In this document: one piece after another, positions 20,499-35,955 of the stretch
Layout of the letters: each line of letters begins with the position of its first letter
How positions within the stretch are numbered: the stretch's first letter is position 1
Assembly: GCA_047456295.1 (NCBI GenBank)
Contig: CP179887.1
Span: forward strand, 175,159-239,158
Direction: 5' to 3'
DNA from: Candidatus Nealsonbacteria bacterium
GTDB taxonomy: Bacteria > Patescibacteriota > Minisyncoccia > Minisyncoccales > JANBVM01
DNA: 64,000 bases
Notes under the pieces: generated by a model
The model's database searches: none
What the model was told of the DNA's origin: nothing
Seen by the model: the letters and a program-made list of their open reading frames with translations, nothing else
Program-made: the position numbers and the translations under genes

Positions 20499-20624
20499 AG
20501 AGAATTGATAAAGAAATTGATGCAAAAAGGTTAATATATAAAGCTAACTCTTTTTTTATATAGCCTGATAAGGTATCTTATCTGATATTTAAATACATAT
20601 AAAAAAGTCGAGGATAAAAGAAAT

Positions 20625-20738
20625 CTCTAATAATCTAAAGAAGGGATCAAAAGGAGAAAAGAAATAAATAGATTAACATTGTGCGACATTTATTAGGTGA
20701 TAAAGAACCGTTAGGGTAGGGAACTAATGGTTTTTTTA
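20625..20738 (+). repeat. repeat unit U1 (box A, core ATTGTGCGACATTT at 20678-20691, conserved terminator hairpin at 20706-20738); left inverted repeat of the recombinase module
   Basis: The reverse complement of 20671-20737 matches 22779-22845 at 57 of 66 aligned positions by hand alignment. Similarity continues outward (GGAGAAAAG / GGAGAGAAAG, GATC). Confidence 0.8.
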
Positions 20739-20767
20739 TTCTTCAAGGTTTTTGTTACAATGAAAAT

Positions 20768-21616
20768 ATGAGTAAAGTTAAATTCCATCCTTATACCGAA
20801 GAATTTAAAAAAAATTTTGAAAAAGAGAGAGAAAGAATTAAAAAAGTTTTGCCTGAAGATGAAGTACACCATATTGGAAGCACGGCTATTCCCAGAGTAG
20901 GTGGGAAGGGAATTATAGATATTTTAGTTGCCCTGCAGGACTGGGAAAAAAGGGAAGGAGCAATTGAAAAATTAAAAAATTTGGGATTCACTCATATTCA
21001 CCCAGAAGAAAACGGAAGAGTCTTTCTAAGTAAAATAGGGGAGACAAAATATAGAGACACTCATATTCATCTTGTAGAAAAGGGCAATGAAGATTATATT
21101 GAAAAATTACTTTTCCGAGATTTTCTTAGAAGAAATAAAAAAGAGGCTGAAAAGTACCATAAATTAAAACACGAATGGGAGAGGGAAGCAAAAGGGGATA
21201 GGGATAGATATGGAAAATTAAAAAAATCCTATATCGAAAATATTATAAGACGAGCCAAAGAGAAGAGGGAAGTCTTTTTAAAAAAGTACTTAAGTTATTT
21301 AGGACAAAAGGTAAAAGCTATTATAGACAGGCCTTTAGGCAGTAAACATCCTGATTTTAACATTGTTTATTCTGTAAATTATGGATTTTTACCAAAAACA
21401 GAGGCTTTTGACGGAGATGAAATTGATGTTTATGTTTTAGGAGTTGAAAAACCAATAACAAGTTTTGAAGGAGAAGTAATTGCAGTTATTCATAGGTTTG
21501 ACGATAATGAAGACAAACTGGTCGTAGCTCCAGAAGGCAAAGAATTTACTGATCAGGAAATTAGAGATTTAACAGATTTTCAAGAAAAGTATTTTAACTC
21601 GGAAATAATTAAGTAG
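20768..21616 (+). CDS. GrpB-family protein fused to a short inorganic-diphosphatase-like domain
   Basis: The N-terminal half has HHIGSTAIPRVGGKGIIDILV (GrpB/UPF0157). The C-terminal ~110 aa has IDRPLGSKHP...VNYGFLPKTEAFDGDEIDVYVLG...DNEDKLVVAP (family I PPase-like core). Confidence 0.7.
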   Translation: MSKVKFHPYTEEFKKNFEKERERIKKVLPEDEVHHIGSTAIPRVGGKGIIDILVALQDWEKREGAIEKLKNLGFTHIHPEENGRVFLSKIGETKYRDTHIHLVEKGNEDYIEKLLFRDFLRRNKKEAEKYHKLKHEWEREAKGDRDRYGKLKKSYIENIIRRAKEKREVFLKKYLSYLGQKVKAIIDRPLGSKHPDFNIVYSVNYGFLPKTEAFDGDEIDVYVLGVEKPITSFEGEVIAVIHRFDDNEDKLVVAPEGKEFTDQEIRDLTDFQEKYFNSEIIK

Positions 21617-21658
21617 TTAATAGTGAGAATAATACATACATATTAGCTAGGGAAGTAC

Positions 21659-21686
21659 TTGACACCGTCCTTTGGGACGGTACAAT
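21659..21686 (+). promoter_or_regulatory. near-consensus sigma70-type promoter facing the recombinase gene
   Basis: TTGACA (21659-21664), 16-nt spacer CCGTCCTTTGGGACGG (itself a hairpin), TACAAT (21681-21686). Confidence 0.6.
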
Positions 21687-21701
21687 ATAGATAGAGAAAG
21701 A

Positions 21702-21727
21702 GTCGCACAATGTAGGTTAAGCGACAT
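21702..21727 (+). repeat. core copy S2 inside the recombinase leader (GTCGCACAATGT...GCGACAT)
   Basis: GTCGCACAATGT is identical to 12 nt of the U1 core on the opposite strand. It is followed 9 nt later by the inverted half GCGACAT. Confidence 0.65.
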
Positions 21728-21822: not shown

Positions 21823-22779
21823 ATGAAAAAATCAAACACACCAATTATAAAACATATCCCCGACTTTTTAGATTATTGTGAAGTAGAAAAAGGATTATCT
21901 GATAAAACCCAGGAAAACTACCAGCGCTACCTCCAGAAGTTTGTCTCCTGGCTAAAAAGGGCAAAAAAAGAAGATTTAAAGCCCCATCAGCTCACTACAG
22001 ATGATATTTGGGGTTATCGGCTCTATTTATCAAGATTTAAGCATTATAAGGGTAAACCCCTGAAGAAGATAACCCAGAACTACTATTTAATCGCCCTGAG
22101 AGCCCTTCTAGGCTATTTTACAGCCAAAGATATAGTTTCATTGCCTGCTGATAAAATAAAGCTCCCAAAAGACGCTAAAAAGGCAAAAACAGTCAAATTC
22201 CTCAATTTAGAGCAAGTTGAGAAGCTTTTACTAGCTCCTGGCACCAAAAGCCCTATTGGTTTAAGAAATAAGGCTATTTTGGAAGCACTTTTCTCAACTG
22301 GTTTGAGAATAGCTGAATTAGTGGCTCTTAATAAAGAACAATTTGCCAACATAGAAAACAAAAAAGGATTGGAGCTCAGTGTTATTGGTAAAGGAGGTCA
22401 TCCCCGAACAGTCTATTTTTCAGAAAGAGCTTTATCTTGGCTCAAAAAATATTTGGAAACAAGAAAAGACAAAGAAAAAGCCCTATTTATCAACTATAGA
22501 TCTAAAAAGGGCGCAGACGCCCGCTTAACGTCTCGTTCTATAGAAAGAATCGTTAAAAAATATGCAATCTTAGCCGGTATTCCTATATTTACCACTCCCC
22601 ATACCCTTCGTCACAGTATGGCGACTGATCTTTTAACTCAAGGTGTTGATTTAAGAACCATCCAAGAATTTTTGGGCCACAAAAACATCGTCACAACCCA
22701 AATATATACTCACGTAACAAGCAAGCGCCTTCGAGACATTCACCGCAAATTTCACAGCGGGAAGAACCTAAAAGAATAA
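21823..22779 (+). CDS. tyrosine site-specific recombinase (XerC/XerD-like integrase family)
   Basis: N-terminal SAM-like domain (DFLDYCEVEKGLSDKTQENYQRYL). Catalytic contexts GLRIAEL (Arg), HTLRHS (His-x-x-Arg), LGH and IYTHV (Tyr). The ORF opens at 21772, but MKKSNTPII at 21823 is the more plausible start. Confidence 0.9.
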   Translation: MKKSNTPIIKHIPDFLDYCEVEKGLSDKTQENYQRYLQKFVSWLKRAKKEDLKPHQLTTDDIWGYRLYLSRFKHYKGKPLKKITQNYYLIALRALLGYFTAKDIVSLPADKIKLPKDAKKAKTVKFLNLEQVEKLLLAPGTKSPIGLRNKAILEALFSTGLRIAELVALNKEQFANIENKKGLELSVIGKGGHPRTVYFSERALSWLKKYLETRKDKEKALFINYRSKKGADARLTSRSIERIVKKYAILAGIPIFTTPHTLRHSMATDLLTQGVDLRTIQEFLGHKNIVTTQIYTHVTSKRLRDIHRKFHSGKNLKE

Positions 22780-22783
22780 AAAA

Positions 22784-22880
22784 ACCGTTAGTTGCCTACC
22801 CTGACGGTTTTTTCTCATTTACTAAATGTCGCACAATATTAATCTTCAAACTTTCTCTCCATTCCGATCTTTATTTATTC
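22784..22880 (-). repeat. repeat unit U2 (hairpin 22784-22810, core AAATGTCGCACAAT at 22824-22837, box A 22861-22880); right inverted repeat
   Basis: See U1. On the minus strand it sits between the stop of the 233-aa gene and the hairpin. Confidence 0.8.
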
Positions 22881-22892
22881 TAAAATATATCT

Positions 22893-23594
22893 TTAACCAA
22901 TAAAATTTATCAGCAACTTATCTAAACTCTCTGGTACAGCATCGCCTGAACAAACACATGGTATTTCAACCAATCCAACATTTGTTCTCTCGGTCTTAAT
23001 TTTTATTCTTTGTGAATCGTAAATTCTAGCTCTAATTAGCGGTTTGTTTCTATAAAGACCATTATGATTTGCATGCCTTGCAGTCGGACCCTGCTGTGCC
23101 AAATCGAAGTTTCCTTTGTCAACGATCTCAATCTCTGATGGAAAAAATATTCTGAAAGTAGGATTATTTGCGCTTATTACACCCTTATTATGTAACCAGA
23201 ATTCAATTTGGCATTCTTCACCTGCCCGCAAGTCAATTTGATTTTGGTTTTTTACAAAAGTTACATATAAATTAGGAGTTTGATTTTGTCTAACAACAAC
23301 GTCTTCTGAAATAATCTTTAAGCTTCTTGCGACAGAATCCAGAGTAATACTTGTTGATTTTAACTCTTCTATTTGTTTCCGTGATACTTCAATCGTCTCT
23401 CTAGTCGAAATATCCATCTTTCTGAAAGTCTGCAATGCTATAGCTAACATAGCACATACTCCCAGCAATCCAAGAAGCAAATTTACGACAGTTATATTCT
23501 TTATCTTAAAATAAAAAATAAATATAAGAATAAGAAGAATAATAACTGTAAGCCAAAGTAGATGAAGCATAATATTTTTCTTTAGTTTATCCAT
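22893..23594 (-). CDS. hypothetical 2-TM membrane protein with a soluble C-terminal domain
   Basis: 233 aa with two N-terminal hydrophobic helices. It lies 17 nt downstream of the GIY-YIG gene. Confidence 0.6.
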   Translation of the reverse strand: MDKLKKNIMLHLLWLTVIILLILIFIFYFKIKNITVVNLLLGLLGVCAMLAIALQTFRKMDISTRETIEVSRKQIEELKSTSITLDSVARSLKIISEDVVVRQNQTPNLYVTFVKNQNQIDLRAGEECQIEFWLHNKGVISANNPTFRIFFPSEIEIVDKGNFDLAQQGPTARHANHNGLYRNKPLIRARIYDSQRIKIKTERTNVGLVEIPCVCSGDAVPESLDKLLINFIG

Positions 23595-23611
23595 AGATGA
23601 TAATTAATATC

Positions 23612-23905
23612 TTAGTAGACATTATGGGGAGGATTGTATCTGGTTCTCCAAAAGCTCTCTAAAGCTTTAGCGTCGTCTTCCGTTCTAGTTTCATACCAAT
23701 CAAAAAAAATAACCCCAGGTATATCTTTGGATTTAAAATGTTCAAGAATCCTTTCCTTTAGTCGCCCGACACCGGCCTTGCCAACATATAAAATACCTCC
23801 GATCCTAGTGTTACTTCTTAGTGTGTATACACCACACGTATCAGGCACACTATCTATATTTTCTCTTTCCCATTGCAAAATGCCAGATTTCTTGATAAAT
23901 GTCAT
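23612..23905 (-). CDS. minimal GIY-YIG nuclease-domain protein
   Basis: 97 aa: GVYTL...ILYVGKAG...RLKERI...DAKALE...RYNP. Paralog of 60886..61158. Confidence 0.7.
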   Translation of the reverse strand: MTFIKKSGILQWERENIDSVPDTCGVYTLRSNTRIGGILYVGKAGVGRLKERILEHFKSKDIPGVIFFDWYETRTEDDAKALESFWRTRYNPPHNVY

Positions 23906-23996
23906 GTAATTAGTTTATAATTATTTGTTTAAATTTCTCAATTAATTCCTCAACCTTTTTATATGTTTTGTATTTAAATATCGTAGAATATACCTT

Positions 23997-24053
23997 CTGC
24001 GACATTTAAGTTCGAGCCTTGTCTTCCCGCGCATCGTGGACGATGTTCGAACC
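23997..24053 (+). repeat. repeat unit U3 (core TGCGACATTTA plus GC-rich hairpin)
   Basis: The 11-mer TGCGACATTTA is identical to U1. It is followed by the nested hairpin GTTCGAG...CATCG-TGGA-CGATG...TTCGAAC. Confidence 0.55.
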
Positions 24054-24067
24054 TATTTAGTTAAGGG

Positions 24068-24541
24068 TTAAGTTTTCTTTTTTATTTCTTCAGCTAACTT
24101 TTTGAGCTCGGCAATATCAATTTTTGGTCCTAATTGAGTAGAAATATATCCCTGGTATTTATTAAAAAATACTTTCTCCTTCCCCCACATCTCTCTAAAT
24201 TTCTCAGTTATACCGTGTAAAGGATAAAGTTTAATATGAGCATGGTTTATTCCCATTCCTTCCATAACCATTGCAACTCTTTTTACATCCAAACCTTTTT
24301 CTAAGATTTTTACAACTTTTTTAGTGGTTTTCATGAATCTTTGGTAGACATCTTCTTCCATATCAAAAACATAAGAATCATAATGTTTCTTTGTTAAAAG
24401 TAAAGTCATTCCTTTTGTATTAGGATTAACATCTAAGATTGCAAGAAATTCTTTGTCTTCCCAAATTTTAGCTGAATCAATTTCTCCTTTTATAATTTTA
24501 CAAAATATACACTGTTCCATTTCTATTTCAGTTTCTTTCAC
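24068..24541 (-). CDS. HIT-family nucleotide hydrolase/transferase
   Basis: CIFCKIIKGEI...LDVNP...GINHAHIKLYP (histidine-triad variant). Confidence 0.8.
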   Translation of the reverse strand: MKETEIEMEQCIFCKIIKGEIDSAKIWEDKEFLAILDVNPNTKGMTLLLTKKHYDSYVFDMEEDVYQRFMKTTKKVVKILEKGLDVKRVAMVMEGMGINHAHIKLYPLHGITEKFREMWGKEKVFFNKYQGYISTQLGPKIDIAELKKLAEEIKKKT

Positions 24542-24544
24542 AGT

Positions 24545-25048
24545 TTATTTTGAGATTTTAATTAATTGTGAAAATTTCTTTTTTCGAATCTTCTTATCCA
24601 TTTTTAACACATACTCCCAGGCTTCTTTCCACTTATAAATAGGAGCCTTGGGGTGATTCATCTCTCTATTTACCATTTCTTCTGTAAATTCATTACCATA
24701 TAACTGTTCCCAAACATCATATAAAATCAAATTAATTTGTTTGTGTTGCTCAAAAGAATCATTATGGTGTATATTGTTTCCATAAAGTAATCGATGACAC
24801 AATTCGTGCACTAAAAGTCCTTTTCTATATTTCTCAGGAAAATAAGCATTTAATGAAAGAGGGTGTGAACGACTTATTCTTTCGTAGATAATGGCATTTA
24901 TGCTTTTCTCATTAAACTCTAAACCACTAATTTCTTGCATAACATTCGTTATTCTTTTTCCCTCTCTATCCCATAATGCCTGCCATTTTTCTGTTTCTAA
25001 AATTAATTCTTTTTTATCCCAGCCAGGGCGAAATTTTATTTTTAACAT
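24545..25048 (-). CDS. hypothetical protein with an HExxH motif (possible zinc metallohydrolase)
   Basis: 167 aa with LLVHELCHRLLYG. It lies 3 nt upstream of the HIT gene. Confidence 0.5.
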   Translation of the reverse strand: MLKIKFRPGWDKKELILETEKWQALWDREGKRITNVMQEISGLEFNEKSINAIIYERISRSHPLSLNAYFPEKYRKGLLVHELCHRLLYGNNIHHNDSFEQHKQINLILYDVWEQLYGNEFTEEMVNREMNHPKAPIYKWKEAWEYVLKMDKKIRKKKFSQLIKISK

Positions 25049-25405
25049 ATTACTTCATTATACTAAAAAAGAGTTGGGAGCTCAAAGCAACTGTTTTTAT
25101 TTAAATAAATTCTATGAAATCACACAAAATACCTTGTGAGACTAAAATGGTGAGATTCTCTAAGAAGAATAAATCCGCCTAACAGTAAGCTTGGTTTTTT
25201 ACTGCAAATCATCCCCCACCCGAGATGTCTTGGGATATAAATTGGGTGTCTTTATTTTATATCTCTACTAGTTGAACTGTACTAAAGTCTGATTAGTTAA
25301 GACTCTGGAATAAAAAATGGACGTTTAATTTACTAAAACGTCCTCTATAGAATTTCTTTAATTCTTAAAGAAATATTTTCTTCTATTTTTTTTAAAAAGT
25401 TTTCA

Positions 25406-25678
25406 TTACACATTAAACGCTTTTCTAAAATCCGTATATATTTCTGTGTAACCACATTTCTTACAAGCTATAATGCTTACTGGGTATTTAGGCACTATAC
25501 ATACTGGATTGTTTGGTTCTTCTGGATATTTTTTCACCCAGCTTCTGAAATCTCCCATGCCATAAAATAAACCCTTCATCGTTTCTCCATCACAACGAAA
25601 ACATTTCTTTGGAGGAGGAAACGTTTCAAACTCTAAATCTTTCTTTGCAATCTGTTTTCTTTCTTCCAAATTATTCAC
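25406..25678 (-). CDS. hypothetical zinc-ribbon protein
   Basis: 90 aa with CFRCDGE...CKKCGYTE. Hairpin plus T-run terminator at about 25316-25350 on the minus strand. Confidence 0.5.
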   Translation of the reverse strand: MNNLEERKQIAKKDLEFETFPPPKKCFRCDGETMKGLFYGMGDFRSWVKKYPEEPNNPVCIVPKYPVSIIACKKCGYTEIYTDFRKAFNV

Positions 25679-26097
25679 CTCAAATTTATACTGCTTAGAG
25701 TATAAACCCGAGTTTAAAAATTGTCAATTTATTGTACTGGTTCACATGCATCTGAACCTAAGCAGTCAAAAAGTAAAATGACTATCCCCTGAAATGAAAA
25801 GGAAGGTTTTTTCAGGAACAAAGAGTCCCATTTCGGTGACTAGTGATAACTATAACCAAAAAAAACAAAAAGTAATTAAAGTCTAAATAATAATTATTAC
25901 CTCTTACATTTTTGTAGAGATTAAGTTCAATTTAATAGTATGATATTCTTTGCAATCCTAACCGTACCTTCATTTCAATATAAAATAGATATCATTGTTG
26001 TGGTACAAAATTTAATAATAGGTTGAATAAAGGCAATATTGACAAAATTTAAAATACTATTAGGGTTACTAATAGAACTATTAAAATAAAATATGAG

Positions 26098-27438: not shown

Positions 27439-27451
27439 AAAAAATCAAAGT

Positions 27452-29185: not shown

Positions 29186-29436
29186 ATAGATTATCTGACA
29201 TCTACACACATTATTTGCCTGACAGCATCCAATATGGATTGACTTATTTAGAACAGTATGCTATTATTCTAGTCAGATTATAAGTCGAGCATTTAAACAA
29301 TCTTTCTAAATAAAGATCGGAAAATAGAACGGCTTAGTAATCAAAAGGTCGCTTTTTAATTTAAAATTCTAACTAAGCGTTCAAATAAGTTTTGAGTTTC
29401 AGAACTTAAAACTTAGATTTACGATCTTAATTTAGT

Positions 29437-29625
29437 ATGTTTAATGACTTCAGAGATCGTCCAAGGAGAGATTTTTCTCCCCGAAAGATGTACCAGGGAA
29501 ATTGGAAATGTGCTGATTGCGGAAAAGAGATAACCGAACTTCCATTTGAGCCTTCAGCAGACAGACCAATTTACTGCAGGGAGTGTCATGCCAAACGAAG
29601 ACCTCCTCAAAGATCCAGGTACTAG
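29437..29625 (+). CDS. CxxC-x17/18-CxxC zinc-ribbon protein
   Basis: 62 aa with WKCADCGKEITELPFEPSADRPIYCRECHAKRR. Long leader upstream. Confidence 0.7.
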   Translation: MFNDFRDRPRRDFSPRKMYQGNWKCADCGKEITELPFEPSADRPIYCRECHAKRRPPQRSRY

Positions 29626-29640
29626 ATCAGAATAATAAAG

Positions 29641-29666
29641 CCCCGCAAGAATTTTGCGGGGTTTTT
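29641..29666 (+). terminator. rho-independent terminator
   Basis: CCCCGCAA-GAATT-TTGCGGGG followed by TTTTT. Confidence 0.8.
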
Positions 29667-29788
29667 AGTTACATTGATTCCTTGAAATCCTAAAATTCGT
29701 TTTAATTTAAAACACGGCAATTGTCAGAATTCAGGAAATTCCATAAAAGTTTAGATAAACTTAAAGTTTAAAATACCTATTGGTAATT

Positions 29789-30574
29789 TTAATTATGGAG
29801 TTCTATTCCTCGTACCCTTATATCTTCTGAGGAAATGATGTTTTTGCATTCTTTAATAAACTCTAAAAACTTCTTTCTATCTCTCAAAATATTATAACTC
29901 TGGGGAAATCTATCCCTTAGTACATCCATAAATTCTTTCCCGGCTCCTCTTGTATTAATCATTTCAAACCAATAATAATCAGCGAATTTTTTAGTTTTTT
30001 TAATTATCTCTCTCAAATTTATCAAGCCTGGAATTATCGGACTAATAAAGGCATAAGTGGATATTCCTTTATCTTTAAGGGTTTTTAAGACTTCTATCCT
30101 TCTTTTATTTGAGGGTGAAAACGGTTCAAAAATATGTTTTGAGCTATTACTGAAGCTATTTATGGTTAAACCAACTTCAATATTCTTAAATTTTTTGAAA
30201 AGCCCTAAGTCTCGCAGAATCAAATCTGACTTTGTTTGAATGGAAAGTTTTATTCTTTTATCCAAATTTTCTAATATTTGCCGGGTTATTTTTAGTCTTT
30301 TCTCAATATGCTGATAAGGATCAGAGATAGAACTCATATAAACCCAATCATCAACATATCTTCCTTTTACTAGTTCTGGGGCATTTATTTTTACTTCCAC
30401 CCAGGTTCCCCATTTTCCGTAATGACTTGGACGCCATTTAGATATAAATTTAGCATAACAATAAAGACAAGCATGCTGGCAACCAACATATTGATTAATT
30501 ACCCATTTTACTCCTGGAATTTTGCTTCTGGTAAAAATTGACTTAGCTTTAACCTTAATCACTCTAATTTTCAT
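29789..30574 (-). CDS. SPL/DNA-photolyase-like radical SAM protein
   Basis: VINQYVGCQHACLYCYA (CX3CX2C), 261 aa, SplB-like family pattern. Confidence 0.75.
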   Translation of the reverse strand: MKIRVIKVKAKSIFTRSKIPGVKWVINQYVGCQHACLYCYAKFISKWRPSHYGKWGTWVEVKINAPELVKGRYVDDWVYMSSISDPYQHIEKRLKITRQILENLDKRIKLSIQTKSDLILRDLGLFKKFKNIEVGLTINSFSNSSKHIFEPFSPSNKRRIEVLKTLKDKGISTYAFISPIIPGLINLREIIKKTKKFADYYWFEMINTRGAGKEFMDVLRDRFPQSYNILRDRKKFLEFIKECKNIISSEDIRVRGIELHN

Positions 30575-30586
30575 ATTTCCATATTA

Positions 30587-30648
30587 CCAAAATCCCCTAG
30601 CCAACAGGAATAGGGTGATTTTTTCCTCCTCGATAAATGTCGTACAAT
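30587..30648 (-). repeat. repeat unit U5 (core ATTGTACGACATTTAT plus hairpin)
   Basis: The minus strand reads ATTGTACGACATTTATCGAGGAGGAAAAAATCACCCTATTCCTGTTGGCTAGGGGATTTT. The core matches U1 at 16 of 17 positions. Confidence 0.65.
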
Positions 30649-30680
30649 CTGAAGCCAGCAAAGAGTTTATTTTAAATCCT

Positions 30681-30941
30681 TTATCTCTCTAATTTTTTTA
30701 ACAAAGCATAAACTATATTGTTTACATCATGAGGGCTTAGTGACAATTCACCTTTTCTTCCTTTCTCCAGGAGAACTCTTCCCTTCTTGAGACGTTCAAG
30801 GGTCTTTTTTCCGCTATGATACCACAAGGTCTTTTTCCCTGATTCTTCAATTTTCTCTATCTCTTCTTCTAAAGCTTTTAGAGATCCTTTGTAAGGAAAG
30901 GGGTGTAAATAATAATCTTTTTCAGTAAAGTTTTTTTCCAT
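30681..30941 (-). CDS. hypothetical small protein (tandem paralog 1)
   Basis: 86 aa. Shares EIEKIEESGKKTLWYH...TLERLKK...DVNNIVYALL with the adjacent gene. Confidence 0.55.
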   Translation of the reverse strand: MEKNFTEKDYYLHPFPYKGSLKALEEEIEKIEESGKKTLWYHSGKKTLERLKKGRVLLEKGRKGELSLSPHDVNNIVYALLKKLER

Positions 30942-30968
30942 ATAATTATTAGCCTGTTTTTTTAAGTA

Positions 30969-31211
30969 TCAGTTTTGTTTTTCTTCAAGTTGATCTAATA
31001 AAACATAAATGATGTTGTCTACATCCTGGGGAGTTAAATTCTTCCCTTCTTCTTTTTTCAAACGCTCAAGGGTTTCCTGGGCACCATGATACCACAAGGT
31101 TTTCTTCCCAGAGCTTTCAATTTCTTCCATTTCTTTTTTAAAGAATTTTAAAACCTTCTCATAATACCTGAGATACAAAATGTAATCTCTTTGTGTAAAT
31201 TTTGTTTTCAT
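30969..31211 (-). CDS. hypothetical small protein (tandem paralog 2)
   Basis: The ORF opens at 31274; the likely start is MKTKFTQRDY at 31211. EMEEIESSGKKTLWYH...TLERLKK...DVDNIIYVLL. Confidence 0.55.
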   Translation of the reverse strand: MKTKFTQRDYILYLRYYEKVLKFFKKEMEEIESSGKKTLWYHGAQETLERLKKEEGKNLTPQDVDNIIYVLLDQLEEKQN

Positions 31212-31477
31212 AATTATTTCAACAATATATTCTATTATACTAAAAAACCTTAAAAAATAAAAAAAACGGATCACTGATGTTATACATCTCTCCGTTGTCT
31301 TGATGTTAAAGGCATTTTATACAGTGTTATCTTTCTCAAGATAAAAAATCTTCTTCTTTTAAATATACAAATAAGCTATATTGTCTAAAAAATAAAACCC
31401 ACTTATAAAAATCATTTATAGAAAAACTTAAAACCTACTTTAATTATAGCAGGTTTTTCATTGTTTATTTTATTTTA

Positions 31478-31654
31478 TTAATCTCTTTCTTGCTTAATCT
31501 GGTATTTTACCCCTATATAGGGGTTTAAAGGGTCTAAAGGATTAAGGTGATTACATTCGCATTTCGCAAATAATCTTCCTTTTTTCTCTACCACCTTAAA
31601 CTTTACAAGCATATTACCACATCTGGCACAAAAGGGAATCTTATTTTTTTTCAT
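31478..31654 (-). CDS. 58-aa zinc-ribbon protein (not in ORF track)
   Basis: My translation: MKKNKIPFCARCGNMLVKFKVVEKKGRLFAKCECNHLNPLDPLNPYIGVKYQIKQERD. GGTGAGGTGAG lies directly upstream, and a hairpin plus T-run lies downstream (about 31430-31460). Confidence 0.4.
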   Translation of the reverse strand: MKKNKIPFCARCGNMLVKFKVVEKKGRLFAKCECNHLNPLDPLNPYIGVKYQIKQERD

Positions 31655-31749
31655 CTCACCTCACCATTTATAATTATAATTTTTATAAAGACCTATCTCT
31701 ACTTTAAATATACAAAATTATCTAAAACTTTTCAATATTATCTTAAAAT

Positions 31750-31797
31750 AAAAACCGTTACTTCCCCACCCTAACGTCTTTTGTCAATTAATAAAGC
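31750..31797 (-). repeat. repeat unit U6 (conserved hairpin plus right flank, core replaced)
   Basis: The minus strand reads TTTATTAATTGACAAAAGACGTTAGGGTGGGGAAGTAACGGTTTTT, versus U1 TTTATTAGGTGATAAAGAACCGTTAGGGTAGGGAACTAATGGTTTTT. Similarity stops where the core would begin. Confidence 0.65.
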
Positions 31798-31915
31798 TTA
31801 AGATATACCCCTTGTTTGTGATAAAGGTCAAGAGAGATTCTCAGGATTCACTTGCATTATGTAACCATTTTTAGTTAAAGTTACATATTATTAATAGACA
31901 CAACAAAATAGAGTA

Positions 31916-32464
31916 ATGTATCAGCAAGATAGCCAAGAATTCAAGATATTTGTCGAAAAAGCTCAAAATGGCAGCAAGGATGCCTTTCGAGAAATCTTCG
32001 ATCGTCTGAGCAATAGGTTCTTTGCCTATATTTTTTCTCGTACCTCAAACAGAGATGATGCCTTAGATATTGTCCAAGAAACGTTCATTGAACTCTGGAA
32101 CGCTCTAAATAAATTTCAGTACAGATCAGATAAAGCATTCTATGGTTTCATTTTCACCATCATTAAACGAAAGCTTTCCAGATACTATAAATACAAACAC
32201 AGGGTTGTCCCTCTTGATAATCTCAGTGAAAAACACATAAGCCAATCTAAGATAAAACAAGAAGACTACCGATTTATGCTAAAGCATGTGAACGCCCTTG
32301 GGCCAAAATATCAGGATCTCTTGAGGCTCCGCTACTGGTCTGAAATGACCTTCGCTGAAATTGCATCTGTGTTAAATATTACAGAAACAACTGCCAAGGT
32401 CCGGCATCACCGAGCCTTAAAAAAATTAAAAACTAATTTAAACAAAGACAATTATGACTTCTAA
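31916..32464 (+). CDS. ECF-type RNA polymerase sigma-70 family factor
   Basis: 182 aa with region 2 (DALDIVQETFIELW) and a region 4 HTH (MTFAEIASVLNITETTAKVRHHRALKKL). Confidence 0.85.
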   Translation: MYQQDSQEFKIFVEKAQNGSKDAFREIFDRLSNRFFAYIFSRTSNRDDALDIVQETFIELWNALNKFQYRSDKAFYGFIFTIIKRKLSRYYKYKHRVVPLDNLSEKHISQSKIKQEDYRFMLKHVNALGPKYQDLLRLRYWSEMTFAEIASVLNITETTAKVRHHRALKKLKTNLNKDNYDF

Positions 32465-34034
32465 TACTGAAAATATTGAAAAAAAACTAAAGATGGTACA
32501 ACCAAAACCGCTTACTCAAGCTGAAAAAAATGTACTTTGGCTTAAGATTGAAAAAGGTATTAAAGAGGATGTTCGACAACATTCCTATTTTCCTCAACCA
32601 TTAATATTCTTTGGGTTAAGGCCCAGGTTTGTCTTTGCTTCACTTTTGATTGTTGTTCTCCTGGGAGGCTCTGTTGCAACAATGGCAGCTTCAGATAATG
32701 CTAAACCAGGCGATATCCTCTACCCTATTGATATTATGCTTGAGAAGGTTCAACTTGTATTTTCAACAAACAGAAAAAAAGACTCTCTCTACATTCAATT
32801 TGCTGAAGAACGACTCAGTGAGGCAAAAATAATTTTAGCTTTCGTGGAGTCTGATGATTTTGATATCTCAGATGAAGCAACCACAACACCACCTATAAAA
32901 GAGAGGAAATCCCAGAAATTTAACCTTAAAAGAATAAAAAGAGCTGGTAATGCTTTAACCATTGCTCTTGAAAATTTAGAGCAAACAAAAATTATCTTTG
33001 AAGAAAAAGGAAATATGGTTGCAATGCTGGCAATAGATAAAATTATTGAGGAACTAACAGGACTTGCAGAAAACCATGTATCTGATTTGGATAATTTTGA
33101 AACAGAAATCGAATATAACGATGAAAAAAAACTAGAAATAAAAACCTCTCGTGATAAGCTCAAGATTAAATTTAATTTGGGTCAAGAAAAGAAATATCAA
33201 AGAAGAGGAGAGGAGATTGAGATGGAGACCGAGCTTGAAAATGATGACGAAAATGAAAATAGTAACCAGCAAGGAGAACAAGGCCGTGAAAAAGTTACTA
33301 TCTGTCATATTCCACCAGGTAATCCTGACAAGGCACATACAATAATAGTGGCAAGGGCAGCTGTAGAAACCCATTTGAACCGCGGAGATATTCCCGGTCC
33401 ATGCGAGGAAGATACTGCAACTTCAACCTCAGACACCATAGCACCTCTCATTTCAGAGATTGCTTCAAATGCCTCTACAACCATGGCAGAGATAAGCTGG
33501 GATACAAACGAACCTTCAGATTCTAAGGTTTGGTACAGCACCACCACACCACTTGTTATTTCAGAAACTACTCCCTTTGTTACCTCAACTGATTTGGTAA
33601 CGAACCACACTGTATCTTTATCAAATCTCACTGCAAGTACAACATATTACTTTATTGTTAGCTCAACTGATGCAGCTGGCAATTTTGTAACCTCAATACA
33701 ATCTTCATTTACAACACTTCCAGAAGAACAAGAACCTGAAGATACAACACCTCCCACCTTAACTAATATAATGGCAACGAGTACAATTGCAACCTCAACC
33801 TTTATCTCCTGGAAGACTGATGAGAAAGCAACAAGCAAGGTTTGGTACGGGTCATCAACCCAGCTTACCATCTCAACTTCTACACCTATGGTAGAAAATT
33901 CTGACTTAGTCTTTAATCACTCTTTACAAATTACAGGACTTACAGCCAGCAGTACATACTATTACATTGTTTCTTCTTCAGATGAATCTGGAAATACTGC
34001 TACATCAAGTGAATTCTCCTTTACCACTCTCTAA
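32454..34034 (+). CDS. single-pass membrane protein, putative anti-sigma factor with two extracellular FN3-like repeats
   Basis: Overlaps the sigma gene by 11 nt. TM segment FVFASLLIVVLLGGSVATMAA, motif ICHIPPGNPDKAHTIIVARAAVETHLNRGDIPGPC, and two ~100-aa repeats ending SSFTTL / FSFTTL. Confidence 0.7.
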   Translation: MTSNTENIEKKLKMVQPKPLTQAEKNVLWLKIEKGIKEDVRQHSYFPQPLIFFGLRPRFVFASLLIVVLLGGSVATMAASDNAKPGDILYPIDIMLEKVQLVFSTNRKKDSLYIQFAEERLSEAKIILAFVESDDFDISDEATTTPPIKERKSQKFNLKRIKRAGNALTIALENLEQTKIIFEEKGNMVAMLAIDKIIEELTGLAENHVSDLDNFETEIEYNDEKKLEIKTSRDKLKIKFNLGQEKKYQRRGEEIEMETELENDDENENSNQQGEQGREKVTICHIPPGNPDKAHTIIVARAAVETHLNRGDIPGPCEEDTATSTSDTIAPLISEIASNASTTMAEISWDTNEPSDSKVWYSTTTPLVISETTPFVTSTDLVTNHTVSLSNLTASTTYYFIVSSTDAAGNFVTSIQSSFTTLPEEQEPEDTTPPTLTNIMATSTIATSTFISWKTDEKATSKVWYGSSTQLTISTSTPMVENSDLVFNHSLQITGLTASSTYYYIVSSSDESGNTATSSEFSFTTL

Positions 34035-34258
34035 AAATAGAAACCCTTAGAGTTTTCTCCCTAAAGGCATTCTGCTTAGGTTTAATTTTGTATTTTTTGA
34101 ATTATTCTCCTGTTTTATTCTGACAAAACAACTAAAATAAAAAACATCTTCCTCAAAATAAAAAGCCCAAGGATGGGCCTTTTTACCCAGTTCTAGATTA
34201 AGATATTTCAAGGGTAAAGTTATAGTTTTAAAGACTAAGTCCCTTGCCTTTAAAATAT

Positions 34259-34495
34259 CTAATCTCCCAAACCCTCATCCGGCACTATCTTCTTTATTCT
34301 TTCTCTCTCATGTTCTCTTCTCTCTTCTCTTATTTCTTTCTTAATTCTTCTTGCTAAAAGAAATCTCTCCCATCTTTTTCTTATTATATCCATTAATCCT
34401 TGCTTTTTCTCCCTATTATCCTCTTCCATCTTTAACCAGTTTAAATTTCCTGTCCTGGAGTATATTAGTTCTTTTACCCGCATATTTGTACCCAC
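34259..34495 (-). CDS. hypothetical R/E-rich small protein
   Basis: 78-aa ORF with a GTG start and no motif. Weak support. Confidence 0.3.
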   Translation of the reverse strand: MGTNMRVKELIYSRTGNLNWLKMEEDNREKKQGLMDIIRKRWERFLLARRIKKEIREERREHERERIKKIVPDEGLGD

Positions 34496-34686
34496 AACCA
34501 GTTAATTAAGAATAAGCCGACCTTTAATACTTCTTTTGTTTTTTTAGAAAAACATTGTTTATGGATAATTTATATATTATCTAAATGTGAGCTCGTTTCC
34601 ATAAAATGTCAAGTTAAAATAATCAAACCTCACTTTAAATACAAAAAAAACTTGACTTAATGCTACAAAAGTTTTATAGCATAAAT

Positions 34687-35829
34687 ATGGAATCTCTACT
34701 GTCGCTTATCATTATTATTGCCTTTATTATAACCTTCTCTTATCTGGGGCCCTTTTCAGATAGTAATTCGAAAAATCTGCAGCAAGCAAGTATTTCTCAG
34801 ACCCAAAATGATATTCCTATAAATCAGATAACACCACCTGCGCCAAAACCTAAACAACCTGTTGTTTTAATTGATACCCGTATAACTTCAGGTCCCGAGG
34901 AAGGAGAAATTATAGAAGAAACAAATAAGGTTGTTTTTGAGTTTGAAGCCCAAATTTATTCAGGACAAATCAAGGGAAAGATGTTGTTTGAAACAAAAAT
35001 TGAAGGATTTGATGAGGACTGGAAAAAAACCTCTTCTAAAAAGAGAATTGTAATCCTTCCTTCAGGACCCAAGGAATATACCTTTTTGGTCAGAGGAAAA
35101 ATAAATGATTTTGTTGATCCCACCCCAGCCAAGATAACCTTTAAAATAAATCTCTCTCCTTATTTTAAAAAAGTAAGGATTGCCACTATCAAAACTGAAA
35201 CCTTTTATTCTCCTTCTTTAATAACCTTAAGCACTAATCTAAAAAAAGAAGAAGAAATAAACATCAGTGGTTGGCATATTAGGGGAAAAGCAAACAGCTT
35301 TGTTATTCCTCCAGGAATAGAAAAATATTATCCTGGTTACGGTCCGGTTCCTGAGGAAAGCATTTTTGTAAAACAAGGCGATAGAATATATCTGTCTGCC
35401 AGCTCAAATCCTCTGGGAAAAAATAGAAATTTCCGGCCCAATAAATGCCTGGGTTATTTAGCCAACTATCACGATTTTATTATCCCCTTGCCAAAAAAAT
35501 GCCCAAAACCAACAAGAGAAGAAATTTCTCACCTTAACCCATGTTGCCAAGAGTTTATTCTCCGCCTCAATAGATGTCAAATCCCTGATTATTCTAATAA
35601 TATTAGGATTTCCCTTGACTCAGAATGTGTATCTTATCTTGATAAAAACTTTAACTATGGTGGCTGTTTTTACCAATATTCCAGAGATAAAGACTTCTTG
35701 GGAAAGAATTGGCATATTTACTTAAATAGAAATATCATCGTTAGTAATGATTGTGACACACTTTATTTACGGGACCAAAATGGTTTGTTTATAGATAAAT
35801 ATTCTTATGGACGAGCTGTCTGTCAATAG
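34687..35829 (+). CDS. membrane-anchored protein with a lamin-tail-like domain and Cys-rich C-terminus
   Basis: The ORF opens at 34660; the likely start is MESLLSLIIIIAFIITF. INISGWHIRGKANSFVIPPG...GDRIYLSA resembles an LTD fold. Eight or more Cys in the last 130 aa. Confidence 0.65.
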   Translation: MESLLSLIIIIAFIITFSYLGPFSDSNSKNLQQASISQTQNDIPINQITPPAPKPKQPVVLIDTRITSGPEEGEIIEETNKVVFEFEAQIYSGQIKGKMLFETKIEGFDEDWKKTSSKKRIVILPSGPKEYTFLVRGKINDFVDPTPAKITFKINLSPYFKKVRIATIKTETFYSPSLITLSTNLKKEEEINISGWHIRGKANSFVIPPGIEKYYPGYGPVPEESIFVKQGDRIYLSASSNPLGKNRNFRPNKCLGYLANYHDFIIPLPKKCPKPTREEISHLNPCCQEFILRLNRCQIPDYSNNIRISLDSECVSYLDKNFNYGGCFYQYSRDKDFLGKNWHIYLNRNIIVSNDCDTLYLRDQNGLFIDKYSYGRAVCQ

Positions 35830-35894
35830 ATGTTCTGGCTAAATACTTTGAACAAATAAAGATTCTGTTATTATATTCTTAACTGAATTAAAAT

Positions 35895-35931
35895 AAAAAA
35901 ACCGTTAGTTTTATCCTCTAACGGTTTTTTT
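35895..35931. repeat. repeat unit U7 (conserved hairpin only; bidirectional terminator)
   Basis: AAAAAAACCGTTAGTTTTATCCTCTAACGGTTTTTTT has the same stem as the U1/U2/U6 hairpins (AACCGTTAG...CTAACGGTT). Confidence 0.6.
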
Positions 35932-35955
35932 AGTATTAATATAAAATAACTCTTC

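What the first reader, a model, noticed from the sequence alone, without database searches (positions are those of the whole stretch)
20606..35940. Cassette-like accessory region punctuated by a conserved recombination-type core and hairpin next to a tyrosine recombinase
Within 15 kb I see six copies of a core with consensus ATTGTGCGACATTTAT. They lie at 20678-20691 (+), 21702-21713 (-), 22824-22837 (-), 23997-24008 (+), 29173-29185 (-) and 30635-30648 (-). There are also four copies of one specific hairpin, AACCGTTAGGGTAGGGAACTAACGGTTTTT, at 20706, 22784, 31750 and 35895. The usual layout is gene stop, then core, about 12 nt, then hairpin. Copy U6 (31750-31797) keeps the hairpin and the flank TTTATTA..TGA.AAAGA but diverges exactly where the core begins, as expected at a crossover point. 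The copies separate small, functionally unrelated gene groups in mixed orientation. This resembles integron attC or pdif-module logic, but the sites and recombinase are non-canonical.
Basis: partly seen in the sequence, partly recalled or inferred. Interest (0 to 1): 0.8.

Follow-up and report, generated by a model that had tools for sequence, protein, structure and literature searches.

The report
Xer/dif terminus site with gene islands
The repeated "core" is most likely the chromosome-unlinking (dif-type) recombination site of a tiny Patescibacteria (CPR) bacterium, sitting beside its conserved Xer recombinase where the two replication arms appear to meet, and the accessory genes around it are insertions that piled up at that site.

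Summary
The core is real, but it is not a new cassette recombinase system. Its full form is a 20-bp sequence, TTAATATTGTGCGACATTTA. That sequence is identical in dozens of Patescibacteria genomes and usually occurs once per genome. It lies -2 to about 1,700 bp beyond the stop codon of a highly conserved XerC/D-family recombinase, on the opposite strand. Gene orientation and GC skew switch sign at this point.

The window holds one perfect copy (22823-22842, -) and an inverted near-perfect copy (20673-20692, +). Together they bracket a GrpB-pyrophosphatase gene and xer. A core-derived element sits at the xer promoter (21702-21725). Degenerate direct copies or relics lie at 29171, 30634 and about 31783. 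The copy at 23989 is no better than chance.

Relatives show an "empty" state, xer-site-UppS, with only 8-23 bp between site and UppS. The window has 14.5 kb there. Homology with relatives breaks exactly at the relic cores. A phage contig carries the exact 20-mer.

Best reading: a dif/Xer module at the replication terminus that has accreted islands, in the manner of IMEX elements or dif modules. The inverted second site, the promoter element and a covarying hairpin with a conserved loop are unusual. No recombination was shown directly.

The parts
20673..20692 (+). Left, inverted dif-like site TTAACATTGTGCGACATTTA (19/20). Its outer TTAAT arm faces the left chromosome arm.
   Evidence: An equivalent + strand copy lies 217-1154 bp upstream of xer in 12 of 32 genome loci and in 9 of 35 assessable metagenome loci. 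In these left copies the outermost 3 nt are degenerate, while the inner 17 nt and the following TTAGGTG are conserved.
20706..20738 (+). Hairpin with loop GGTAGGGAA and a T-run, placed after the left site. It probably terminates the GltX-ORF138 operon.
   Evidence: Across 19 examples the stem has compensatory changes at 6 of 9 pairs (0 of 500 shuffles reach this), and the loop positions G, G, G, A, A are invariant.
20768..21616 (+). Cargo gene between the left site and xer: a GrpB / inorganic pyrophosphatase fusion (282 aa).
   Evidence: Pfam. This slot holds unrelated genes in other species. It is absent in relatives where ORF138 lies 127-400 bp from xer.
21659..21686 (+). Promoter-like site of xer: TTGACA, 16 nt, TACAAT.
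   Evidence: Best promoter-like match in the region, 11 of 12. The same layout is seen upstream of many orthologues.
21702..21725 (+). Core-derived promoter element GTCGCACAATGTAGGTTAAGCGAC, just downstream of the promoter. It shares ATGTCGCACAAT with the core on the minus strand. Inferred to be a Xer autoregulation site.
   Evidence: Conserved in nearly all orthologous xer upstream regions. The substitutions seen break the pairing rather than compensate for it (my reading of the sequences; no pair-count test was run), which favours a DNA site over an RNA stem. The DNA fold z-score is -3.3.
21823..22779 (+). xer: a XerC/D-family tyrosine recombinase of 318 aa. The true start is 21823, not the 21772 given by the ORF list.
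   Evidence: In the alignment to E. coli XerD the R, K, HxxR, H and Y residues are all present.
22780..22812 (-). Hairpin with loop GGTAGGCAA between the xer stop codon and the site. It would act as a bidirectional terminator.
   Evidence: DNA fold z-score -2.95.
22823..22842 (-). Principal dif-like site TTAATATTGTGCGACATTTA (20/20). The proposed anatomy is TTAATAT | TGTGCG | ACATTTA.
   Evidence: The identical 20-mer follows the xer stop by -2 to 1413 bp, on the opposite strand, in 32 genome loci, and in 60 metagenome loci with a median distance of 94 bp. Most hit genomes have a single locus. GC skew changes sign here.
22843..29170 (.). Island A. It contains ORF233, a GIY-YIG-like gene, HIT, ORF167, ORF90, a radical-SAM/SPASM gene, a TehB-type methyltransferase and ORF143. 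No recombinase gene is present, and GC is 29-32%.
   Evidence: The island is absent from relatives in which the site is 8-23 bp from UppS.
29171..29190 (-). Degenerate dif-like relic TCTATGTTGTGCGACATCTC, in direct orientation with the principal site.
   Evidence: Homology of about 90% with L002 starts exactly here and runs through the zf_Tbcl_2 leader; there is none on the island side. The L002 counterpart is a 19/20 site. The same variant occurs in L027.
30634..30653 (-). Degenerate dif-like copy TTCAGATTGTACGACATTTA (3 mismatches), in direct orientation and followed by a different hairpin.
31750..31815 (-). U6, a former dif junction. It keeps a family hairpin (loop GGTGGGGAA) and both site flanks, with 16 nt of core deleted.
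   Evidence: L009 and L014 have xer, hairpin, intact site, AGCTTAATATAAGG, TTGCATAATGTAACC..., then the sigma gene. The window has the same flanks and the same sigma-gene leader, minus TGTCGCACAATATTAA.
35895..35930 (-). Related hairpin (stem CCGTTAG/CTAACGG, loop AGGATAAAA) with no recognisable core. It may be an old junction or simply a convergent terminator.
   Evidence: D5; z-score -4.66. No core is detectable next to it.
29191..36970 (.). Further modules between the relics and the conserved CutA-UppS backbone: zf_Tbcl_2 plus a radical-SAM gene; ORF86/ORF101/ORF58; sigma-70 family factor (weak match to the ECF model)/ORF526/ORF389; and an NYN-domain gene.
   Evidence: In other genomes zf_Tbcl_2 (L139, L073), the sigma gene (L009, L014, L099) or UppS (L048, L075, L077) lies directly beside an intact site.

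Best explanation
The 20-bp core is the dif-type site at which the adjacent Xer recombinase resolves chromosome dimers in this Candidatus Nealsonbacteria (Patescibacteria/CPR) genome. Gene and site form one module at the convergence of the two replication arms.

Inferred mechanism. Xer monomers bind the two imperfectly inverted 7-bp arms, TTAATAT and TAAATGT, and exchange strands across the 6-bp centre TGTGCG. The core-derived element just downstream of the xer promoter lets Xer limit its own transcription. The hairpin beside each site terminates the convergent transcripts and may also have an accessory role.

Origin of the accessory DNA. Because the site is a standing recombination target, DNA carrying a look-alike site integrates there, as IMEX elements and Acinetobacter dif modules do. 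Each insertion leaves a second site in direct orientation, often with its own hairpin. Those extra sites then decay (29171, 30634) or lose the core outright (about 31783), which fixes the module in place. The window's 14.5-kb accessory stretch is a stack of such modules.

The inverted left copy and its cargo gene form a further module on the other side of xer. Its role is unresolved.

Shown: sequence conservation, position, copy number, synteny, breakpoints, and intact catalytic residues. Inferred: binding, strand exchange, autoregulation and the mode of insertion.
For: RECOMBINASE
- It has the Phage_integrase and SAM_1 domains.
- XerD, XerC and XerA models score 223, 221 and 198 bits.
- The best solved relative is E. 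coli XerD, and the R, K, HxxR, H and Y residues align.
- More than 100 orthologues are 80-86% identical.

SITE
- A scan of 185,579 species genomes found 51 stretches. About 37 are Patescibacteria, nearly all with one locus per genome. The rest are variant hits in other phyla.
- In 32 of 32 loci holding an xer orthologue, the identical 20-mer lies on the opposite strand, -2 to 1413 bp past the stop codon.
- The metagenome scan found at least 120 loci. Sixty have xer convergent upstream. Another 5 have the perfect copy as the left site. About 10 belong to a lineage with two tandem xer paralogues.

TERMINUS-LIKE POSITION
- Cumulative GC skew in the window peaks at 21-22 kb, and genes converge there.
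- The flank right of the site has negative skew in 31 of 32 loci, and the left flank exceeds the right in 30 of 32.

CONSERVED FRAME
- The order MurG-GltX-ORF138 > xer > site < UppS-FADox-PyrG recurs across relatives.

INSERTIONS AT THE SITE
- The distance from site to UppS is 8-23 bp in 7 relatives and 0.9-6 kb in 12 others. In the window it is 14,546 bp.

BREAKPOINTS AT CORES
- Searches place homology breakpoints exactly at the relic cores.

DIRECT-REPEAT MODULES WITH NO RECOMBINASE GENE, IN RELATIVES
- L002 11500/19708 flanks 8.2 kb.
- L003 11231/19521.
- L062 11403/12547 flanks a desulfoferrodoxin and a rubrerythrin gene.

PHAGE
- Phage contig L161 carries the exact 20-mer between its small-terminase gene and a groEL-like gene.

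PROMOTER ELEMENT
- The core-derived element at the xer promoter is conserved across orthologous loci.
Against: - Only 20 bp are conserved, not the usual 28. The dyad is weak: arms match at 5 of 7 positions, and the best register scores 6 of 10.
- The terminus position rests on local skew and gene orientation. These are not independent of each other, and whole-genome skew and the origin could not be examined.
- No FtsK gene lies in the window.
- A second, inverted copy in about a third of genomes is not expected of a plain dif site.
- L061 has the xer orthologue but no site within 10 kb.
- About ten contexts, including Saccharibacteria ones, have the site with no xer nearby.
- Whether this genome has a second Xer is unknown.
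- No population-level junction, inversion or excision was observed. The only independent assembly of this strain is collinear.
- The relics at 30634 and 35895 have no comparative support.
Confidence: 0.77

Rival explanations
1. This is a dedicated cassette-capture system, integron-like. A specialised recombinase would insert and excise gene cassettes at folded attC-type sites.
For: - Unrelated small gene groups are separated by core copies.
- Each core has a hairpin beside it.
- The cargo gene between the left site and xer differs between species.
Against: - The integron-integrase model scores 97 bits against a cut-off of 265.
- The recombinase is a conserved, syntenic, housekeeping-type Xer.
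- The core does not fold as single-stranded DNA; only the neighbouring terminator-like hairpin does.
- Most genomes have one site and no cassettes.
- There is no attI/Pc layout.
Confidence: 0.04
2. The inverted pair 20673(+)/22823(-) is an inversion switch. Xer would flip the 2.1-kb segment carrying grpB and xer, or larger segments between inverted copies, as Xer-like recombinases do at Mycoplasma and Ureaplasma phase-variable loci.
For: - The inverted pair bracketing xer recurs in about a third of relatives.
- In L029, L036 and L011 the xer/site module is mirrored relative to UppS-PyrG.
Against: - Each repeat carries its own terminator, and xer has its own internal promoter, so flipping would change no obvious expression.
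- The perfect copy is almost always the one beyond the 3' end of xer. Frequent flipping would not preserve that.
- The outer arm of left copies is degenerate.
- Both available assemblies of this strain have the same orientation.
Confidence: 0.12
3. The sites are polar replication-termination (Ter-like) sites forming a fork trap. The neighbouring gene would be autoregulated by its own site, as tus is by TerB and rtp by its terminators.
For: - The site is asymmetric.
- Apart from the promoter-element copies and one weak copy in L062, all + copies lie left of xer and all - copies lie right of it, that is, opposed polarity around the skew switch.
- A copy lies in the promoter of the adjacent gene.
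Against: - The adjacent protein is a complete tyrosine recombinase, not a Tus- or RTP-like protein.
- Most genomes have a single site, which cannot trap forks from both sides.
- Homology breakpoints and a core deletion at the sites indicate recombination, not fork arrest.
Confidence: 0.05
4. The core and hairpin are a generic terminator or REP-like dispersed repeat with no link to recombination.
For: - The hairpins end in T-runs and sit after genes.
- Two family hairpins, at 31750 and 35895, lack a core.
Against: - The strict core gives one locus in most hit genomes, and that locus is beside xer wherever an orthologue is present.
- In 562 kb of loci, 13 of the 23 loop-pattern matches lie within 40 nt of a core on the same strand. 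About 18 of the 23 are true family members. The orphan members lie in the variable regions near sites.
- No core copy and no family hairpin occurs in the other 48 kb of the window.
Confidence: 0.02

Closest known systems
Single-recombinase Xer modules: XerS/difSL (streptococci, lactococci) and XerH/difH (Helicobacter, Campylobacter)
   Same: - The recombinase gene lies immediately beside its site, which the review PMC5357621 calls a possible hallmark of single-recombinase systems.
- The site is asymmetric, and one arm is better conserved than the other.
- Only one xer gene is found at the locus and in the window.
   Different: - The protein is XerC/D-like: 318 aa, scoring 223 and 221 bits on the XerD and XerC models.
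- It is not XerS-like (114 bits against a cut-off of 267), and XerH is only a distant match (E = 5e-12).
- The site sequence is unrelated to difSL and difH. It lies downstream of the gene and convergent with it.
- The inverted second copy, the promoter element and the conserved-loop hairpin have no counterpart that I know of in these systems.
- A sister lineage has two tandem xer genes before the same 20-mer.
XerCD/dif with IMEX elements (Vibrio CTX/TLC/VGJ phages, Neisseria gonococcal genetic island)
   Same: - A housekeeping Xer site near the terminus is used as an integration target.
- Islands lacking their own recombinase are flanked by the site and a degenerate direct copy.
- A phage carries the site sequence.
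   Different: - xer is adjacent to the site, whereas xerC and xerD are unlinked to dif in E. coli and Vibrio.
- Each junction often carries a hairpin as well.
- Several fossil junctions stand in series, and one of them was inactivated by a precise core deletion.
- Integration has not been demonstrated.
Acinetobacter pdif / dif modules
   Same: - Discrete gene modules are bounded by Xer sites, including pairs in inverted orientation.
- The modules contain no recombinase gene.
- The same modules are found in different neighbourhoods in different genomes.
   Different: - This system is chromosomal and terminus-linked, not plasmid-borne.
- In this case one module contains xer itself.
- The sites are 20 bp of conserved sequence with a different consensus.
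- The host phylum is different.
Integron (IntI / attI / attC)
   Same: A tyrosine recombinase lies next to an array of unrelated small gene groups separated by repeats that have secondary-structure potential.
   Different: - The IntI signature is absent.
- The core is a conventional double-stranded site and does not fold.
- Gene orientations are mixed and there is no common promoter.
- The recombinase is the syntenic housekeeping Xer.
Mycoplasma/Ureaplasma Xer-type invertases (e.g. Xer1 at vpma; cf. PMC3599477, listed)
   Same: A Xer-family recombinase gene lies adjacent to short sites in inverted orientation.
   Different: - No surface-antigen gene family is present.
- No promoter is gained or lost on inversion.
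- The principal site occurs once in most genomes scanned and sits at the skew switch.

Membership tests
Xer/dif chromosome dimer resolution system | Xer-family tyrosine recombinase with the catalytic residues R, K, HxxR, H/W, Y | tested here: met
   Pfam and NCBIfam. The alignment to E. coli XerD (1a0p) shows GLRIAEL, GKGGHPR, HTLRH, LGH and IYTHV. The scores fall below the XerC and XerD equivalog cut-offs, so it is neither of those specifically.
Xer/dif chromosome dimer resolution system | Site made of two imperfectly inverted arms (about 11 bp) around a 6-8 bp central region | tested here: inconclusive
   The best register is 7-6-7, TTAATAT | TGTGCG | ACATTTA, with arms matching at 5 of 7. 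Only 20 bp are conserved, and the positions where the outer 4 bp of 11-bp arms would lie carry no information.
Xer/dif chromosome dimer resolution system | One principal copy per chromosome, conserved across related species | tested here: met
   Nearly all Patescibacteria genomes hit have one locus, including the complete genomes CP179888 and CP179889. The 20-mer is identical across loci whose Xer is 69-84% identical. About a third of genomes add an inverted second copy at the same locus.
Xer/dif chromosome dimer resolution system | Located at the replication terminus (GC-skew switch, opposite oriC) | tested here: inconclusive
   Locally, skew changes sign and genes converge, both in the window and in 30-31 of 32 loci. 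Whole-chromosome skew and the origin position could not be examined, and skew is confounded by gene orientation.
Xer/dif chromosome dimer resolution system | Recombinase binds and recombines the site; control by FtsK | not testable with these tools
   This needs biochemistry or genetics. No ftsK gene is present in the 64-kb window.
Single-recombinase Xer module (XerS/XerH type) | The recombinase gene is adjacent to its site | tested here: met
   The median distance from stop codon to site is about 45 bp in genome loci and 94 bp in metagenome loci.
Single-recombinase Xer module (XerS/XerH type) | It is the only Xer recombinase in the genome; the protein belongs to the XerS or XerH family | tested here: not met
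   Family membership is not met: XerS scores 114 bits against a cut-off of 267, and XerH is only a distant match. Whether a second Xer exists outside the window was not testable. None was found in the window or within 10 kb either side in six relatives.
IMEX (integrative mobile element exploiting Xer) | The element lies at dif, flanked by dif and a dif-like copy in direct orientation | tested here: met
   Window: 22823(-), 29171(-) and 30634(-). L002: 11500(-) and 19708(-). L003: 11231(-) and 19521(-). L062: 11403(-) and 12547(-).
IMEX (integrative mobile element exploiting Xer) | The element encodes no recombinase of its own | tested here: met
   No integrase, resolvase or transposase domain was found in the window ORFs between 22.8 and 37 kb, nor in the called genes of the L002, L003 and L062 islands.
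IMEX (integrative mobile element exploiting Xer) | Demonstrated Xer-dependent integration or excision; a free circular or phage form carrying attP | tested here: inconclusive
   Phage contig L161 carries the exact 20-mer in an intergenic region, and phages L183, L197 and L202 carry tandem inner-core copies. These contigs are partial, their hosts are unknown, and no junction data exist.
pdif / dif modules (Acinetobacter) | Modules bounded by Xer sites in inverted orientation, carried on plasmids, with XerC and XerD arms | tested here: not met
   An inverted pair bounds the grpB-xer module. However, the context is chromosomal and the site consensus is different. This is an analogy in logic, not membership.
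Integron | IntI-type integrase, attI/Pc, and attC sites that fold as single strands | tested here: not met
   Integron-integrase models score 97 bits (cut-off 265) and 57 bits (cut-off 435). The core is unpaired in single-strand folds.

The most novel reading that the evidence does not exclude
In this branch of the Candidate Phyla Radiation the housekeeping Xer/dif module may double as an active gene-acquisition platform at the replication terminus.

In that reading, phages and recombinase-less modules integrate at a composite site made of the 20-bp core and a conserved-loop hairpin. xer itself sits inside a module bounded by inverted sites, which could be exchanged by double crossover or flipped. 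Xer controls its own level through a core-derived promoter element. Surplus sites are then disarmed by decay or by deletion of the core.

The hairpin loop RGTAGRGAA resembles the FtsK-orienting motifs GGGNAGGG and GAGAAGGG. That resemblance is recalled from my own knowledge, not tested here. If real, the hairpin could be an accessory element that sets the direction from which the translocase activates recombination.
Probability: 0.3. Interest if true: 0.75.

Novelty: new variant of a known kind. Interest (0 to 1): 0.6.

Why it matters
1. It gives Patescibacteria a concrete dif site and a cognate Xer. Four literature searches found no paper on this. The site would also be a sequence marker for the replication terminus in these small, uncultured genomes. 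That helps with genome finishing, replication-rate estimates and detecting misassembly.

2. It locates where these streamlined genomes take up foreign DNA. In the window, 14.5 kb of accessory genes sit at a place where relatives have 8-23 bp.

3. Three features are testable departures from textbook Xer/dif: an inverted second site around xer, a core-derived element at the xer promoter, and a covarying hairpin with a conserved loop.

4. Phage contigs carrying the site suggest that CPR phages may integrate without an integrase of their own.

Tried and rejected
- Rfam, at gathering threshold on the whole window and at E <= 1 on 20.4-36.6 kb, found nothing at the cores, the hairpins or the zf_Tbcl_2 leader.
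- Single-strand folding showed that the core does not fold, so an attC-like or CTX-like folded site was rejected.
- A KOPS-like strand-skew test in the window was uninformative. GGGNAGGG is 10:3 toward the site, but base skew alone explains that, and the top skewed words are A-rich coding words.
- Recent duplication or gene conversion does not explain the 84-nt inverted repeat. Left-right flank identity within genomes (0.58) equals that between genomes (0.56).
- PHROGs and PADLOC gave no informative hits on the island proteins, only generic radical-SAM, HIT and methyltransferase similarity.
- The viral scan with the strict pattern found only two contigs, both with a TACAAC variant, probably unrelated. 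The 16-mer viral scan (34 hits) is near my rough estimate of chance, apart from the L183/L188/L197/L202 group.
- The exact-protein look-up with the ORF-list start (21772) failed. The true start is 21823.
- I looked for FtsK or DnaA in the window to anchor the replication map. Neither is present.
- Strain-level variants of this organism were sought among the metagenome loci. The closest are only about 65-80% identical in DNA, so no population-level junctions could be examined.
- The copy at 23989-24008 was rejected as unsupported.

Full report
1. WHAT IS IN THE SEQUENCE

The window is low-GC DNA (about 29-39%). A + strand cell-wall and division cluster (Mur ligases, MraY-type transferase, FtsW, MurG), followed by GltX, runs up to about 20.5 kb. 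A - strand block (CutA, UppS, an FAD oxidoreductase, CTP synthase, L9, CtpB, DnaJ, DnaK) runs from about 37 kb onward.

Its 9-mer heart occurs 8 times with up to 1 mismatch, against 2.3 expected.

It brackets a GrpB/pyrophosphatase fusion gene and a tyrosine recombinase gene. Each arm holds the core, a spacer of about 12 nt and the hairpin.

2. IDENTITY OF THE RECOMBINASE

- The true start codon is 21823, giving 318 aa.
- The organism is a Candidatus Nealsonbacteria (Patescibacteria) with a contig of 689 kb.
- The protein has more than 100 orthologues at 80-86% identity.
- It scores almost equally on the XerD (223 bits), XerC (221) and archaeal XerA (198) models, all below their equivalog cut-offs. 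It scores far lower on XerS (114) and integron-integrase (97) models.
- Its closest solved relative is E. coli XerD, and all catalytic residues align.
- It is the only such gene in the window.

3. THE CORE IS A CLADE-WIDE 20-MER TIED TO XER

In relatives the conserved unit is TTAATATTGTGCGACATTTA.

A strict, four-fold degenerate pattern was scanned across one genome for each of 185,579 species. It gave 51 stretches. About 37 are Patescibacteria, nearly all with a single locus per genome, and they include two complete Nealsonbacteria chromosomes. The remainder are variant sequences in unrelated phyla.

In all 32 non-redundant loci that contain an xer orthologue (69-84% identity), the identical 20-mer lies on the opposite strand, from -2 bp (overlapping the stop codon) to 1413 bp downstream. 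The typical distance is about 45 bp.

- 60 have xer convergent upstream (median distance 94 bp).
- 34 are too short to judge.
- Of the other 26, five have the perfect copy on the upstream side of xer.
- About ten belong to a lineage with two tandem xer paralogues (about 50% and 32% identical to this Xer) before the same 20-mer.
- About ten, including Saccharibacteria contexts and a phage contig (see section 7), have no xer nearby.

4. POSITION

Cumulative GC skew in the window peaks at 21-22 kb, where + strand genes meet - strand genes.

Across the 32 loci, the flank beyond the site has negative skew in 31, and the left flank exceeds the right in 30. This is the signature of a replication terminus. 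Two cautions apply: skew and gene orientation are not independent, and I could not examine whole chromosomes.

The frame MurG-GltX-ORF138 > xer > site < UppS-FADox-PyrG is conserved. In three loci (L029, L036, L011) the xer/site module is mirrored relative to UppS-PyrG.

5. ANATOMY OF THE SITE AND ITS COMPANIONS

Information content drops to zero immediately outside the 20 bp in the downstream copies. The best dyad register is TTAATAT | TGTGCG | ACATTTA, with arms matching at 5 of 7 positions. That is compatible with a tyrosine-recombinase core site, but it is weaker and shorter than a textbook 11-6-11 dif.

The core does not fold as single-stranded DNA.

The hairpin beside it is a genuine conserved structure. 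In 19 examples, 6 of 9 stem pairs show compensatory changes (0 of 500 shuffles reach this). The 9-nt loop RGTAGRGAA has five invariant positions. Of the 23 loop-pattern matches in 562 kb of loci, about 18 are true family members. Thirteen of the 23 lie within 40 nt of a core on the same strand, and the orphan members lie in the variable regions near sites.

Upstream of xer, nearly every orthologous locus has a TTGACA/TAYAAT promoter followed by GTCGCACAATGTAGGTWAAGCGAC. This shares ATGTCGCACAAT with the core. The substitutions seen there break the potential stem rather than compensate for it. That is my reading of the sequences, not a formal pair count. I therefore read the element as a DNA binding site, probably for autoregulation by Xer.

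6. THE SECOND, INVERTED COPY

Twelve of 32 genome loci and 9 of 35 assessable metagenome loci have a + strand copy 217-1154 bp upstream of xer, as the window does.

- Its outermost three bases are degenerate, while the inner 17 nt, the following TTAGGTG and the canonical hairpin are conserved.
- Flank identity between left and right copies within a genome (0.58) is no higher than between genomes (0.56). Both units are therefore maintained by selection; the repeat is not a recent duplication.
- The gene(s) between this copy and xer differ among species: GrpB-pyrophosphatase here, and unrelated ORFs elsewhere.
- Genomes without the copy have ORF138 only 127-400 bp from xer.

7. THE ACCESSORY REGION IS A STACK OF INSERTIONS AT THE SITE

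The distance from site to UppS stop codon is 8-23 bp in seven relatives and 0.9-6 kb in twelve. In the window it is 14,546 bp, the largest seen. GC content is lowest (29-32%) in this stretch. It contains no recombinase or transposase gene.

Three internal junctions have comparative support.
(a) 29171-29190 (-) is a degenerate copy. About 90% homology with L002 begins exactly at it and runs through a 250-nt leader to the zf_Tbcl_2 gene, with no homology on the island side. The L002 counterpart is a 19/20 site.
(b) U6 (31750-31815) keeps a family hairpin and both flanks of a site, and is followed by the same sigma-gene leader as in L009 and L014. There, an intact site sits between xer and the sigma gene. 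In the window exactly 16 nt of core, TGTCGCACAATATTAA, are missing.
(c) 30634-30653 (-) is a copy with 3 mismatches and its own hairpin.

All of these are in direct orientation with the principal site.

In other genomes zf_Tbcl_2, the sigma operon or UppS each lie directly beside an intact site. The same modules therefore occupy the site-proximal position in different lineages.

Relatives also show modules that have no recombinase gene and are flanked by direct copies:
- 8.2 kb in L002 (UvrD-type helicase, methyltransferase, LexA/S24 repressor);
- a similar island in L003;
- a desulfoferrodoxin and rubrerythrin gene pair in L062;
- further pairs of direct copies in L030 and L055.

Phage contig L161 (large and small terminase, a portal/adaptor-like protein, major head protein, GroEL-like protein) carries the exact 20-mer in an intergenic region. 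Related phages L183, L197 and L202 carry one or two inner-core copies upstream of their terminase genes.

8. INTERPRETATION

The simplest account is a dif/Xer module at the terminus that serves as an integration target. Its "integron attC" and "non-canonical recombinase" ideas were not.

What is shown: conservation, copy number, linkage to xer, local terminus signature, insertion relative to an empty state, homology breakpoints at cores, and intact catalytic residues.

What is inferred: that Xer binds and recombines the site, that the promoter element mediates autoregulation, that the islands entered by Xer recombination, and any role for the inverted copy or the hairpin loop.

9. WEAKNESSES

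- The dyad is weak.
- The terminus assignment is local only.
- One orthologous locus (L061) has no site within 10 kb.
- Some site contexts lack xer.
- Whether a second Xer exists in this genome is unknown.
- No population-level inversion or excision junction could be examined. The only other assembly of this strain is collinear, and the nearest metagenome relatives are only about 65-80% identical in DNA.

10. NOVELTY

Four literature searches found nothing on dif or Xer in Patescibacteria or Nealsonbacteria. The kind of system is well known (reviewed in PMC5357621; the archaeal case is PMC2958812).

I class this as a new variant of a known kind: a xer-linked dif site in the CPR with an inverted partner site, a core-derived promoter element, a structured companion hairpin, and serial fossil junctions.

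Noticed in passing
window 29191-29436 (and L002 19728-20020): The 250-nt region between the relic site and the start codon of the small zinc-finger gene (zf_Tbcl_2, 29437-29625) is about 90% identical to its L002 counterpart. The Xer proteins of the two genomes are only 83% identical. It may be a structured leader or regulatory RNA. Rfam gave no hit.
   Followed up: partly
window 20715-20723 and 22792-22800; alignment A1: The conserved hairpin loop, with its closing G, reads GRGTAGRG. This resembles the FtsK/SpoIIIE-orienting motifs GGGNAGGG and GAGAAGGG, a resemblance recalled from my own knowledge. On its strand the motif points away from the adjacent site. A strand-skew test in the window could not separate this from base composition.
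   Followed up: partly
L161 7799-7818; L183 614-678; L197 7612; L202 86: Low-GC tailed-phage contigs carry the site. L161 has the exact 20-mer between its small-terminase gene and a groEL-like gene. L183 has two inner-core copies 49 nt apart, and L197 and L202 have one each, all upstream of the terminase genes. These may be phages that integrate via the host Xer. The contigs are partial and the hosts unknown.
   Followed up: partly
L103, L162, L138, L114, L139, L073, L099: A sister lineage has two tandem xer paralogues (about 50% and about 32% identical to this Xer) immediately before the identical 20-mer, in the same GltX ... UppS frame. This bears on whether the window's system uses one recombinase or two.
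   Followed up: partly
L029, L036, L011: The xer/site module is mirrored relative to the UppS-PyrG block: UppS and PyrG lie upstream of xer and are co-oriented with it. An inversion of the module in evolution would produce this arrangement.
   Followed up: partly
L061 10958-11500: This xer orthologue (81% identical, with the promoter element intact) has no recognisable 20-mer within 10 kb on either side. It is the one clear exception to the linkage between xer and the site.
   Followed up: partly
window 13358-14830: The cell-wall gene cluster is interrupted by a stretch of repeated sequence with copies about 450-660 bp apart (copies at 13681, 14338, 14791; D11, D12). The stretch holds small ORFs, including a pair at 13830-14251 that looks like a HicB/HicA antitoxin-toxin pair. 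That is judged by eye from the translations, not tested.
   Followed up: no
L002 7141-8742: A reverse-transcriptase gene (RVT_1, 533 aa) sits between the ORF138 homologue and the left site. It could be a group II intron or a retron lying next to the module.
   Followed up: no
L003 1-9870: A prophage-like block (tail tube, NUMOD3, lytic transglycosylase) ends directly at the xer promoter in complete genome CP179888. No left site was detectable at the junction.
   Followed up: no
window 30681-30941 and 30969-31274: Two adjacent small ORFs (86 and 101 aa) are paralogues, 71% identical in DNA over 97 nt (D2). Neither has a family match.
   Followed up: no
window 24008-24060: Next to the unsupported core at 23989 lie two motifs resembling a tRNA T-loop (GTTCGAGCC and GTTCGAACC), which could be a tRNA-fragment attachment scar. 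ARAGORN and Rfam report nothing here.
   Followed up: no
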